This document shows positions 57,825 to 64,000 of a stretch of DNA of 64,000 nt, piece after piece; the first letter of the stretch is position 1; every line of letters starts with the position of its first letter. The notes under the pieces are model-generated. The model did not search any database and was not told the origin of the DNA. It saw only the letters and a list, made by a program, of their open reading frames with translations. The stretch lies in assembly GCF_054482595.1 (NCBI RefSeq), contig NZ_CM137008.1, one strand, 5' to 3'. The translations under genes and the position numbers were made by a program.

Positions 57825-59213
57825 ATGGCACTGCAAAATGAGAAAAATAGTCGTTATCTTTTACGCGACTGGAAACCAGAAAATCCGGCCTTCTGGGAAA
57901 ATAAAGGAAAACATATTGCTCGAAGAAACCTCTGGATATCAGTCAGTTGTCTACTTCTTGCCTTCTGTGTCTGGATGCTATTTAGCGCAGTTACCGTTAA
58001 TCTCAATAAAATCGGTTTTAATTTTACTACCGATCAACTCTTTTTATTAACCGCATTACCCTCCGTTTCTGGCGCATTATTGCGTGTTCCCTACTCCTTT
58101 ATGGTGCCTATATTCGGTGGACGCCGATGGACGGTTTTTAGTACTGCAATCCTGATTATTCCTTGCGTCTGGCTCGGAATTGCCGTGCAAAATCCGAATA
58201 CTCCTTTTGGGATATTTATCGTTATCGCTTTGCTATGCGGTTTTGCAGGTGCAAACTTTGCTTCGAGCATGGGCAATATCAGTTTCTTCTTTCCAAAAGC
58301 CAAACAAGGGAGCGCTCTTGGGATTAATGGCGGATTAGGAAACTTAGGTGTAAGTGTAATGCAGCTGGTTGCACCGCTGGTCATTTTTGTACCTGTATTT
58401 GCCTTTCTCGGCGTCAATGGCGTACCGCAGGCCGACGGTTCGGTGATGTCGCTGGCGAATGCCGCATGGATTTGGGTACCGCTACTGGCGATTGCCACGA
58501 TCGCCGCATGGTCAGGGATGAATGATATCGCCAGTTCACGCGCCTCAATTGCCGACCAGCTCCCTGTCTTACAACGCCTGCATCTCTGGCTGCTGAGCCT
58601 GCTTTACCTTGCCACCTTCGGTTCGTTTATCGGTTTTTCTGCGGGTTTTGCCATGCTGGCAAAAACCCAGTTCCCGGATGTGAATATTCTGCGCCTGGCG
58701 TTCTTTGGCCCATTTATCGGTGCCATCGCGCGGTCGGTGGGTGGTGCTATTTCCGATAAATTCGGCGGCGTGCGGGTGACGTTGATCAACTTTATTTTTA
58801 TGGCGATTTTCAGCGCCCTGCTGTTCCTTACCTTACCGGGCACAGGCTCCGGTAATTTCATCGCCTTTTACGCCGTATTTATGGGGCTGTTTCTGACCGC
58901 GGGTCTGGGAAGTGGTTCTACTTTCCAGATGATCGCCGTCATCTTTCGCCAGATAACCATTTATCGGGTGAAGATGAAAGGCGGTAGTGATGAGCAAGCT
59001 CAGAGAGAAGCCGTCACCGAAACGGCGGCGGCTCTGGGCTTTATCTCAGCCATTGGCGCAGTGGGCGGCTTTTTTATTCCGCAGGCGTTTGGCATGTCGC
59101 TCAATATGACCGGCTCTCCAGTGGGCGCGATGAAAGTGTTTTTAATCTTCTACATCGTTTGTGTGCTACTGACCTGGCTGGTTTATGGTCGGCGGAAGTT
59201 CAGCCAAAAATAA
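57825..59213 (+). CDS. narU: Nitrate/nitrite transporter, NarK paralogue (462 aa)
   Basis: Translation MALQNEKNSRYLLRDWKPENPAFWENKGKHIARRNLWISV...; MFS transporter. Confidence 0.92.
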   Translation: MALQNEKNSRYLLRDWKPENPAFWENKGKHIARRNLWISVSCLLLAFCVWMLFSAVTVNLNKIGFNFTTDQLFLLTALPSVSGALLRVPYSFMVPIFGGRRWTVFSTAILIIPCVWLGIAVQNPNTPFGIFIVIALLCGFAGANFASSMGNISFFFPKAKQGSALGINGGLGNLGVSVMQLVAPLVIFVPVFAFLGVNGVPQADGSVMSLANAAWIWVPLLAIATIAAWSGMNDIASSRASIADQLPVLQRLHLWLLSLLYLATFGSFIGFSAGFAMLAKTQFPDVNILRLAFFGPFIGAIARSVGGAISDKFGGVRVTLINFIFMAIFSALLFLTLPGTGSGNFIAFYAVFMGLFLTAGLGSGSTFQMIAVIFRQITIYRVKMKGGSDEQAQREAVTETAAALGFISAIGAVGGFFIPQAFGMSLNMTGSPVGAMKVFLIFYIVCVLLTWLVYGRRKFSQK

Positions 59214-59307
59214 GAGATCGATGCCTGACACGTCTTATCAGGCTACAACCGTGTCGCATCCGACAAGGCATCAGATCCCAATTCATTCCTGGAGCAGGAG
59301 TTATGTC

Positions 59308-62300: not shown

Positions 62301-63048
62301 TATTCAGGCGCAGCCGCGTAAAATTATCTCCAGCCCCACATGGTCTGGTCTGGAAAGCGATCACGTCTCCTATAATGCGGGATACACCAACGTTCATGAG
62401 TTAATTCCGTGGCGCACGCTGTCGGGACGCCAGCAACTCTATCAGGATCATCCGTGGATGCGAGCTTTTGGTGAAAGCCTGGTGGCTTATCGCCCGCCTA
62501 TTGACACCCGTAGCGTCAGTGAAATGCGCCAAATCCCGCCAAACGGCTTCCCGGAAAAAGCACTTAACTTCCTGACGCCGCACCAGAAATGGGGCATTCA
62601 CTCAACCTACAGTGAAAACCTGCTAATGCTGACGCTTTCTCGCGGTGGACCGATTGTCTGGATCAGCGAAACCGATGCCCGAGAATTGACCATTGTCGAT
62701 AACGACTGGGTGGAAGTGTTTAACGCCAATGGCGCGCTGACGGCCCGCGCGGTGGTCAGCCAACGTGTACCGCCGGGTATGACCATGATGTATCACGCCC
62801 AGGAACGCATTATGAATATCCCTGGTTCGGAAGTAACTGGCATGCGCGGCGGCATTCATAACTCGGTTACCCGCGTTTGCCCGAAACCAACGCATATGAT
62901 TGGCGGTTACGCGCAGCTGGCCTGGGGCTTTAACTACTACGGCACCGTCGGCTCAAACCGTGATGAATTCATCATGATCCGCAAGATGAAGAACGTTAAC
63001 TGGCTGGATGATGAAGGTCGCGATCAGGTACAGGAGGCGAAAAAATGA
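59308..63048 (+). CDS. narZ: Respiratory nitrate reductase Z alpha subunit (1246 aa)
   Basis: Translation [63 protein letters not shown]...; track ORF begins 41 codons upstream. Confidence 0.93.
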   Translation: [1246 protein letters not shown]

Positions 63049-64000
63049 AAATACGTTCGCAAGTCGGCATGGTGCTTAACCTCGATAAATGTATCGGCTG
63101 CCATACCTGTTCGGTGACCTGTAAAAACGTCTGGACCGGACGCGAAGGTATGGAGTACGCATGGTTTAACAACGTCGAAACCAAACCGGGCATTGGTTAT
63201 CCGAAAAACTGGGAAGATCAGGAAGAGTGGCAAGGCGGCTGGGTCCGCGATGTGAATGGCAAGATACGCCCGCGTCTGGGCAGCAAGATGGGTGTAATAA
63301 CCAAAATCTTCGCCAACCCGGTGGTGCCGCAGATTGATGATTACTACGAACCTTTCACCTTCGACTACGAACATTTGCATAGCGCACCGGAAGGCAAACA
63401 TATCCCTACTGCTCGCCCGCGTTCGCTGATTGACGGTAAGCGGATGGACAAAGTGATCTGGGGGCCAAACTGGGAAGAACTGCTGGGCGGCGAGTTTGAA
63501 AAACGTGCCCGCGACCGCAACTTCGAGGCCATGCAAAAGGAGATGTACGGGCAGTTTGAAAACACCTTCATGATGTACCTGCCGCGCCTGTGCGAACACT
63601 GCCTCAATCCCAGCTGCGTGGCGACCTGCCCAAGCGGCGCTATCTACAAACGCGAAGAAGACGGTATTGTGCTGATTGATCAGGATAAATGCCGTGGCTG
63701 GCGTTTGTGCATTAGCGGTTGTCCGTACAAAAAAATCTACTTCAACTGGAAAAGCGGCAAGTCAGAAAAATGCATCTTCTGTTATCCGCGAATTGAGTCA
63801 GGCCAACCAACCGTATGCTCAGAAACCTGCGTGGGTCGAATCCGATATCTGGGCGTGCTGCTTTACGACGCTGACCGCATCGAGGAAGCGGCGAGCACCG
63901 AGCGCGAAGTTGACCTCTATGAACGCCAGTGCGAAGTGTTCCTCGATCCACACGATCCCTCAGTGATCGAGGAAGCCCTGAAACAAGGTATTCCACAAAA
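63045..64000 (+). CDS. narY: Respiratory nitrate reductase Z beta subunit, 5-prime part only (runs off the window)
   Basis: Translation MKIRSQVGMVLNLDKCIGCHTCSVTCKNVWTGREGMEYAWFNNVETKPG...; ATG overlaps the narZ TGA (ATGA). Confidence 0.88.
   Translation, partial: MKIRSQVGMVLNLDKCIGCHTCSVTCKNVWTGREGMEYAWFNNVETKPGIGYPKNWEDQEEWQGGWVRDVNGKIRPRLGSKMGVITKIFANPVVPQIDDYYEPFTFDYEHLHSAPEGKHIPTARPRSLIDGKRMDKVIWGPNWEELLGGEFEKRARDRNFEAMQKEMYGQFENTFMMYLPRLCEHCLNPSCVATCPSGAIYKREEDGIVLIDQDKCRGWRLCISGCPYKKIYFNWKSGKSEKCIFCYPRIESGQPTVCSETCVGRIRYLGVLLYDADRIEEAASTEREVDLYERQCEVFLDPHDPSVIEEALKQGIPQ

What the first reader, a model, noticed from the sequence alone, without database searches (positions are those of the whole stretch)
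57825..64000. Second nitrate reductase locus narU-narZ-narY with ATGA translational coupling
narU and narZ are separated by about 95 bp, and the narZ stop overlaps the narY start (ATGA at approx 63045-63048). The same tight coupling is seen at hipB/hipA, ddpB/C/D/F and fdnH/fdnI. This is a useful internal check that these gene starts are correctly placed.
Basis: partly seen in the sequence, partly recalled or inferred. Interest (0 to 1): 0.2.

Follow-up and report, generated by a model that had tools for sequence, protein, structure and literature searches.

The report
E. coli narU-narZ-narY genes, overlapping start/stop
This is the well-known second respiratory nitrate reductase locus of E. 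coli (narU-narZ-narY), and the four-base ATGA overlap between narZ and narY is the commonest junction between neighbouring bacterial genes, already listed in the literature, so the finding is correct but ordinary.

Summary
narU is 57825-59213, narZ is 59308-63048, and narY starts at 63045 and runs off the window. The narU/narZ spacer is 94 nt, and ATGA sits at 63045-63048. The window is E. coli chromosome, and RefSeq annotation of a 100%-identical strain places the genes at these coordinates. Curated family models, solved structures (NarU 4IU8; NarG/NarH 1Q16) and conserved cofactor ligands confirm the gene identities and starts.

The paralogous narG/narH junction is also ATGA in a near-identical context. 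In my survey of 115 narG/narH junctions across bacterial phyla, 43 are -4, 23 are -1, and 77 lie within -8..+6. That compares with 24% of all E. coli same-strand pairs, so the tight junction is conserved, not chance.

"The same coupling" elsewhere is only loosely true:
- hipB/A is -1.
- ddpB/C and ddpC/D are -4.
- ddpD/F and fdnH/I are -8.

Functional coupling is inferred, not shown. narY has its own strong Shine-Dalgarno sequence, and the junction shows no unusual RNA structure. Huber et al. 2023 already tabulate these junctions for K-12.

The only mildly new detail is the spacer. It holds a decayed REP palindrome with a 13-nt length dimorphism: 94 nt here and in about a third of E. coli genomes, 81 nt in K-12. 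Verdict: already known, low interest.

The parts
57825..59213 (+). narU, nitrate/nitrite transporter (462 aa; ATG start, TAA stop)
   Evidence: ORF read. NCBIfam NF011608 NarU scores 1021 bits against a cutoff of 836. It aligns 1-462 to the PDB 4IU8 NarU sequence with 2 substitutions. RefSeq annotation gives the same coordinates. Arg87 and Arg303 are present. The Shine-Dalgarno GAGGA lies 5 nt upstream.
59214..59307 (+). narU-narZ spacer, 94 nt. It holds a decayed REP-type palindrome (about 59220-59271) and the narZ ribosome-binding site (AGGAG at 59296-59300).
   Evidence: Searches give the sequence, alignment and fold. The ends resemble the true REP pair at 49716-49815. No terminator-like or promoter-like site lies in the spacer, and there is no Rfam match. 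K-12 has 81 nt, a 13-nt indel. E. coli genomes split into about 1862 records of the long form and 3561 of the short form. Only the last ~27 nt are conserved in Citrobacter.
59303..59311 (+). Out-of-frame mini-ORF ATG-TCA-TGA whose stop overlaps the narZ ATG (a second ATGA). Probably incidental.
   Evidence: Read from the sequence. It is conserved in K-12 and Citrobacter and absent upstream of narG. Its ATG is only 2 nt from the Shine-Dalgarno sequence, against 7 nt for the narZ ATG.
59308..63048 (+). narZ, catalytic alpha subunit of nitrate reductase Z (1246 aa; ATG start, TGA stop)
   Evidence: TIGR01580 narG equivalog scores 2332 bits. It aligns from residue 1 to NarG 1Q16_A and is 78.9% identical to K-12 NarG with the same N-terminus, MSK(L/F)[11 protein letters not shown]. 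The FS0 ligands His/Cys/Cys/Cys and the Asp molybdenum ligand are conserved. The longest ORF starts at 59185, inside narU, and has a weaker Shine-Dalgarno match (-4.5 against -6.9 kcal/mol).
63032..63037 (+). Shine-Dalgarno AGGAGG for narY, inside the last codons of narZ, 7 nt before the ATG
   Evidence: Sequence. Duplex energy with the 16S 3' end is -10.3 kcal/mol, the strongest of the three genes. The same context occurs at narG/narH and in many Proteobacteria.
63045..63048 (+). ATGA: the narY start codon (63045-63047) overlaps the narZ stop codon (63046-63048)
   Evidence: Listed as -4 for K-12 in the supplement of PMC10666635.
63045..64000 (+). narY, iron-sulfur beta subunit of nitrate reductase Z. 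The first 318 of 514 codons are present; the gene is cut by the window end.
   Evidence: TIGR01660 narH equivalog scores 660 bits. It aligns 1-317 to residues 1-318 of NarH 1Q16_B. All 15 cluster cysteines are present. The full gene, and narW and narV downstream, are seen in the strain identical over the shared part.

Best explanation
This is the E. coli narUZYWV locus, a paralogue of narK + narGHJI. It encodes the nitrate/nitrite transporter NarU and the stationary-phase/stress nitrate reductase Z: NarZ (alpha, Mo-bisMGD plus FS0), NarY (beta, four Fe-S clusters), and downstream of the window NarW (chaperone) and NarV (gamma, haem b).

narU and narZ are most likely co-transcribed across a 94-nt spacer that has no terminator. 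narZ initiates on its own Shine-Dalgarno sequence.

narY's AUG overlaps narZ's UGA (AUGA). A ribosome finishing NarZ therefore terminates one base past the NarY start, next to a strong Shine-Dalgarno sequence. It can reinitiate there, or keep the site open for new 30S subunits. This ties beta-subunit synthesis to alpha-subunit synthesis for a 1:1 complex.

Shown here: the coordinates, the gene identities and the conservation of the junction. Inferred: co-transcription, and actual translational coupling.
For: - Coordinates and annotation.
- Family membership. Structure-sequence matches from residue 1. Cofactor ligands.
- Paralogue narG/narH has the same ATGA and Shine-Dalgarno context. narY/W is -1 and narW/V is -4, mirroring narH/J at -4 and narJ/I at -1.
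- In 115 narG/narH junctions from diverse phyla, 43 are -4, 23 are -1, 5 are -11 and 7 are +1. In all, 77 of 115 lie within -8..+6, against 707 of 2987 of all E. coli same-strand pairs (PMC10666635).
- The same paper lists NarG-NarY among COG pairs with short typical distances. The row reads -1, -4, 12, 366, which I take to be median, quartiles and number of genomes.
- Four of five tested E. coli -4 pairs are translationally coupled (PMC6728339).
- The spacer has no terminator or promoter consensus.
- A mutation upstream of narU raised the transcripts of all five genes, and the authors call it the narUZYWV operon (PMC11417348).
Against: - Coupling of narZ/narY has never been measured here or, as far as I found, in the literature.
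- narY has the strongest Shine-Dalgarno match of the locus (-10.3 kcal/mol).
- The junction is no more structured than shuffled sequence (z = +0.39), so nothing obviously prevents independent initiation.
- One of the five tested E. coli ATGA pairs (bioBF) showed no coupling.
- About 30% of narG/narH junctions in other species are not tight, with gaps up to 249 nt. Coupling is therefore not obligatory for the enzyme.
- Several papers still write 'narZYWV operon' without narU. An internal narZ promoter is not excluded by a consensus scan.
Confidence: 0.9

Rival explanations
1. The ATGA overlap is a neutral by-product of genome compaction and mutation bias. An A-ending last codon plus TGA readily creates or captures an ATG. 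On this view narY is translated essentially by independent initiation on its own strong Shine-Dalgarno sequence, and the overlap has no regulatory role.
For: - narY has a strong Shine-Dalgarno match (-10.3 kcal/mol).
- No sequestering structure is predicted at the junction.
- bioBF is an ATGA pair without coupling.
- About 30% of narG/narH junctions elsewhere are spaced by 12-249 nt and presumably still make a working enzyme.
Against: - The junction stays tight across Proteobacteria (-4), Actinobacteria (-1/+1) and Firmicutes (-11), although the flanking sequence differs. 77 of 115 are within -8..+6, against a 24% genome baseline.
- Short overlaps are enriched among subunits of heteromeric complexes (PMC10666635).
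- Four of five tested E. coli pairs are coupled.
Confidence: 0.2
2. narU and narZYWV are separate transcription units. On this view the 94-nt spacer holds a narZ promoter or a processing/stabilising element (the REP remnant) that uncouples transporter and reductase levels.
For: - The locus was historically named the 'narZYWV operon'.
- The spacer contains a REP-like palindrome beginning 7 nt after the narU stop. From established knowledge, REP hairpins can stabilise upstream mRNA segments.
- The paralogous narK and narG are separate units with 515 nt between them.
Against: - No sigma-70-like promoter or intrinsic terminator lies in the spacer.
- The predicted fold is not significantly stable (z = -1.64).
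- The palindrome is not conserved in Citrobacter, and 13 nt of it are missing in two thirds of E. coli genomes.
- An upstream-of-narU mutation raised the transcripts of all five genes.
- An RpoS-type promoter would not necessarily be found by the consensus scan, so this rival is not fully excluded.
Confidence: 0.15

Closest known systems
E. coli K-12 narU-narZYWV (b1469-b1465), nitrate reductase Z locus
   Same: Same locus. NarZ differs at 6 of 1246 residues and NarU at 2 of 462. The ATGA junction and Shine-Dalgarno sequence are identical, as is the gene order.
   Different: The narU-narZ spacer is 94 nt here and 81 nt in K-12, a 13-nt indel in the REP remnant. The upstream LRR gene is intact here but is split into yddJ/yddK in K-12.
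E. coli narK + narGHJI (nitrate reductase A locus)
   Same: It is the paralogue. Identities are 75% (transporter), 79% (alpha), 78% (beta), 56% (chaperone) and 71% (gamma). The alpha/beta ATGA has the same context, and the other two junctions are also -4 or -1.
   Different: narK and narG are 515 nt apart, with the NarS sRNA and its terminator and an Fnr/NarL-controlled promoter between them. narU and narZ are 94 nt apart with none of these. The order of the -4 and -1 junctions after the beta gene is swapped.
Overlapping unidirectional gene pairs coupled by termination-reinitiation (Huber et al. 2019, 2023)
   Same: A -4 ATGA overlap, an intragenic Shine-Dalgarno sequence, and genes encoding two subunits of one heteromeric complex. 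The pair is explicitly listed as -4, 'CMPLX yes'.
   Different: narZ/narY was not among the pairs tested experimentally, so coupling is by analogy.

Membership tests
Respiratory (Nar-type) nitrate reductase, alpha subunit NarG/NarZ | Full-length match to the curated equivalog model above its cutoff | tested here: met
   TIGR01580 scores 2332 bits against a cutoff of 1084, covering 2-1234 of 1246.
Respiratory (Nar-type) nitrate reductase, alpha subunit NarG/NarZ | FS0 cluster ligands (His49, Cys53, Cys57, Cys92 in mature numbering) and the Asp222 molybdenum ligand. Residue roles are from my knowledge of the 1Q16 structure. | tested here: met
   H, C, C, C and D are at the same positions as in K-12 NarG.
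Respiratory (Nar-type) nitrate reductase, alpha subunit NarG/NarZ | N-terminal tail that binds the private chaperone (NarJ/NarW) | tested here: met
   [15 protein letters not shown] against NarG [15 protein letters not shown], 14 of 15 identical. The binding role comes from established knowledge and was not tested.
Respiratory nitrate reductase, beta subunit NarH/NarY | Equivalog model above its cutoff, and four cysteine groups for the Fe-S clusters | tested here: met
   TIGR01660 scores 660 bits against 524 on the 318 residues present. All 15 cluster Cys align with NarH.
Respiratory nitrate reductase complex (operon level) | Delta (chaperone) and gamma (haem b) genes downstream | tested here: inconclusive
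   These genes lie outside the window. They are present as narW and narV in the strain that is 100% identical over 57600-64000.
NarK/NarU nitrate/nitrite porter (MFS) | Subfamily model above its cutoff, and the two substrate-binding arginines | tested here: met
   NF011608 scores 1021 bits against 836. Arg87 and Arg303 are present. Two substitutions relative to PDB 4IU8.
Translationally coupled overlapping gene pair (termination-reinitiation) | Same strand, with stop and start overlapping by 4 nt (ATGA) | tested here: met
   63045-63048.
Translationally coupled overlapping gene pair (termination-reinitiation) | Translation of the downstream gene depends on translation of the upstream gene reaching the overlap | not testable with these tools
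   This needs a reporter assay with a premature stop in narZ. The only relevant computation, an RNA fold of the junction, shows no sequestering structure.
REP (repetitive extragenic palindromic) element | Match to the REP consensus and an imperfect palindrome, repeated in many intergenic sites | tested here: inconclusive
   The ends TGCCTGA...CTTATCAGGC-TACA and GTCGCATCCGACA resemble the true REP pair at 49716-49815. The stem is truncated, and the K-12 annotation shows no feature here. I call it a remnant, not a member.

The most novel reading that the evidence does not exclude
The 13-nt length dimorphism of the REP-remnant palindrome just after the narU stop could be functional. It is 94 nt in about a third of complete E. 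coli genomes and 81 nt in the rest, including K-12. It might change the stability of the narU segment of the mRNA, or ribosome release at the narU stop, and so set different NarU:NarZYV ratios in different E. coli lineages.
Probability: 0.07. Interest if true: 0.25.

Novelty: already known. Interest (0 to 1): 0.05.

Why it matters
It matters little beyond quality control.

The general principle is already published: alpha and beta subunits of Nar-type nitrate reductases are kept at overlapping or abutting junctions across phyla, which fits stoichiometric and possibly co-translational assembly. My survey only re-derives that result for this one enzyme.

Tried and rejected
1. Known RNA element or NarS-like 3'UTR sRNA in or near the narU-narZ spacer. 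Rfam at gathering thresholds and at E<=10 on 57400-59500 gave only chance-level hits.
2. Terminator or promoter in the spacer. None was found.
3. RNA structure hiding the narY ribosome-binding site (classical coupling by unmasking). The junction folds no better than shuffles, z = +0.39.
4. Stable hairpin in the spacer. It scores z = -1.64, with 13 of 200 shuffles folding as well, so it is not significant.
5. Alternative starts. For narZ: 59185, 59221 and 59251 upstream. For narU: TTG 57765, GTG 57807 and 57813. For narY: Met9. The distant ones tested (59185, 57765, narY Met9) have weaker Shine-Dalgarno matches; the others are rejected because they lie in or beyond unconserved sequence or would remove conserved residues.
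6. The mini-ORF ATG-TCA-TGA at 59303-59311 as a leader peptide. Its ATG is only 2 nt from the Shine-Dalgarno sequence and it is absent at narG, so I treat it as incidental.
7. Identifying the exact source strain through the IS2 junction. No complete genome has the same junction at 100% identity.
8. My first translation used a start off by one (57826), which gave 21 stops. It was corrected to 57825.
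Full report
**Observation**

Reading the sequence gives the following:
- narU starts at ATG 57825 and ends with TAA at 59213.
- narZ starts at ATG 59308 and ends with TGA at 63048.
- narY runs off the window end, with 318 of 514 codons present.
- The narU-narZ spacer is 94 nt.

Megablast shows the stretch is E. coli chromosome. It is present in 5,390 of 5,426 complete genomes and is 100% identical to strain Santai and others. The RefSeq annotation of that strain places narU, narZ and the beta-subunit gene (PGAP labels it narH) at exactly these coordinates. The window as a whole is the hipBA...ddp...fdn...nar region, collinear with Santai apart from two indels near its left end.

**Identity of the genes**

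- Curated NCBIfam models are passed by wide margins: NarU subfamily 1021 bits against 836, narG equivalog 2332 against 1084, and narH equivalog 660 against 524 despite the truncation.
- NarU matches the crystallised NarU sequence (4IU8) over residues 1-462, with 2 substitutions.
- NarZ aligns from residue 1 to NarG of 1Q16. NarY aligns from residue 1 to NarH.
- NarZ keeps the His/Cys3 ligands of FS0 and the Asp ligand of molybdenum. The NarY fragment keeps all 15 cluster cysteines. NarU keeps Arg87 and Arg303.
- Against K-12, NarZ differs at 6 residues and NarU at 2.
- Identities to the paralogous NarK, G, H, J and I are 75, 79, 78, 56 and 71%.

**Start codons**

The ATGA overlap alone is weak evidence for a start. 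Stronger evidence is as follows.
- The NarZ N-terminus [15 protein letters not shown] differs by one residue from the NarG tail.
- E. coli and Citrobacter werkmanii narU-narZ spacers are unalignable except for the last ~27 nt, which carry AGGAG and the ATG. Conservation resumes at the start codon.
- The longest narZ ORF begins at 59185 inside narU, but with a weaker Shine-Dalgarno match (-4.5 against -6.9 kcal/mol).
- For narY there is only one start candidate upstream of the first cysteine motif. The N-terminus MK(I/V)R(A/S)Q is conserved in 115 loci from many phyla.
- Shine-Dalgarno duplex energies are -6.2 kcal/mol for narU, -6.9 for narZ and -10.3 for narY.

**Is the tight junction more than chance?**

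In the window, 36 same-strand junctions include six overlaps: three of -4, one of -1 and two of -8.

- hipB/hipA is -1 (TAATG).
- ddpB/C and ddpC/D are -4.
- ddpD/F is -8, with a GTG start.
- fdnH/I is -8.
- ddpA/B is +1 and fdnG/H is +12.

The same values are tabulated for K-12 in the supplement of Huber et al. 2023. That supplement also lists narZ/narY -4, narY/narW -1, narW/narV -4, narU/narZ +81 and narG/narH -4.

The paralogous narG/narH junction has the same ATGA in almost the same context, CAGGAG(A/G)..AAAATGAAAAT.

I scanned one genome per species for the NarH motif NLDKCIGCHTC at the DNA level and measured the distance from the stop of the long upstream ORF to the NarH start in 115 loci. 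The distances were:

| Distance | Loci | Where |
|---|---|---|
| -4 | 43 | mostly Proteobacteria |
| -1 | 23 | mostly Actinobacteria, GTACTGATG |
| -11 | 5 | Firmicutes-type, TTG start |
| +1 | 7 | |
| 12 to 249 nt | 33 | |

The remaining four loci are at -34, -31, -10 and 0.

- 77 of 115 lie within -8..+6, against 707 of 2,987 (24%) of all E. coli unidirectional pairs (PMC10666635).
- The loci are not phylogenetically independent, and my start choice was rule-based. The result agrees with the published COG-pair table row for NarG-NarY, which reads -1, -4, 12, 366.
- The junction is therefore maintained by selection in most lineages but is not obligatory.

**Mechanism**

The ribosome translating narZ terminates at UGA 63046-63048, one base past the narY AUG. 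An AGGAGG lies 7 nt upstream, inside narZ.

Huber et al. showed strict or major coupling for four of five native E. coli ATGA pairs. They also showed that about 20 nt of spacing abolishes coupling.

For narZ/narY, coupling is an inference by analogy:
- narY's own Shine-Dalgarno sequence is strong.
- The junction is no more structured than shuffled sequence, z = +0.39.
- Independent initiation therefore cannot be excluded.

**The narU-narZ spacer**

- It has no terminator-like or promoter-like consensus and no Rfam match.
- This contrasts with the 515-nt narK-narG region, which carries the NarS sRNA, its terminator and the narG promoter.
- A mutation upstream of narU raised the transcripts of all five genes, and the authors treat narUZYWV as one operon (PMC11417348). 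Other papers still write narZYWV.
- The spacer holds a decayed REP-type palindrome. Its ends resemble the true REP pair at 49716-49815. Its predicted fold is not significant, z = -1.64.
- It is dimorphic. K-12 lacks 13 nt of it. Among complete E. coli genome records, about 1,862 have the long form seen here and 3,561 have the short form.

**Comparison and novelty**

This is the known nitrate reductase Z locus. Its junction distances are already tabulated for K-12, and the principle that short overlaps are enriched among subunits of heteromeric complexes is published.

Nothing here departs from a known kind. The only small additions are the 94/81-nt spacer dimorphism and the mini-ORF ATG-TCA-TGA that overlaps the narZ start. 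That mini-ORF is conserved in Citrobacter and absent at narG. Both are probably without consequence.

**Verdict**

- Observation: confirmed.
- Interpretation: supported, with the caveats given above.
- Novelty: already known.
- Interest: about 0.05.

Noticed in passing
window 9961-11291: A 1331-bp insertion relative to strain Santai interrupts the fimbrial usher (FimD/PapC-type) gene, with a 5-bp overlap at the alignment junction that looks like a target duplication. It carries 136-aa and 301-aa ORFs, and matching records annotate it as an IS3-family IS2 transposase. No complete E. coli genome in the collection has this exact junction at 100% identity.
   Followed up: partly
window ~7769: 877 bp present in strain Santai are missing here. 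The missing stretch removes the 5' part of the fimA-like major fimbrial subunit gene downstream of hipA.
   Followed up: no
window 53844-53902 (- strand): This is the only Rfam hit at gathering score in the whole window: the SECIS_3 selenocysteine insertion element inside fdnG (84.3 bits). It matches the single in-frame TGA of fdnG.
   Followed up: partly
window 59214-59307: The narU-narZ spacer is 94 nt here and 81 nt in K-12, a 13-nt indel inside a REP-like palindrome. E. coli complete genomes split into about 1862 long and 3561 short records. Citrobacter werkmanii has 89 nt with no similarity except the ribosome-binding site.
   Followed up: yes
window 59303-59311: A mini-ORF ATG-TCA-TGA ends in a second ATGA that overlaps the narZ start codon. 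It is conserved in K-12 and Citrobacter and absent upstream of narG.
   Followed up: partly
window 56170-57501: The leucine-rich-repeat gene upstream of narU is one intact 443-codon ORF here and in Santai. In K-12 the same region is annotated as pseudogene yddJ plus a shorter yddK.
   Followed up: no
window 49716-49815: A canonical pair of inverted REP elements (a BIME-like arrangement) lies between yddM and fdnI, flanked by two other hairpins (ggcacctt.../...ggcgcc). I used it as the local comparator for the spacer palindrome.
   Followed up: partly
window 57553-57600: A short palindrome sits downstream of the LRR gene stop. It gives weak hits on both strands to a miRNA hairpin model (chance-level E-values of 0.4-1.3) and has no T-run after it.
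   Followed up: no
L014 and L015 (Pseudomonadota MAG), narG-narH spacers: The two nar loci of one metagenome-assembled genome have 249-nt and 197-nt alpha/beta spacers filled with similar GC-rich palindromic repeats (for example GTAGGGTGCGCCATGCGCACC...GGTGCGCATGGCGCACCCTAC). Repeat elements appear to have been inserted where most species have an overlap.
   Followed up: no
L041 (Vibrio hannami): Its narG/narH junction is -11 with a TTG start and an LKIKAQ N-terminus. This is the type otherwise seen in Firmicutes loci (L077, L096, L116) and suggests horizontal acquisition.
   Followed up: no
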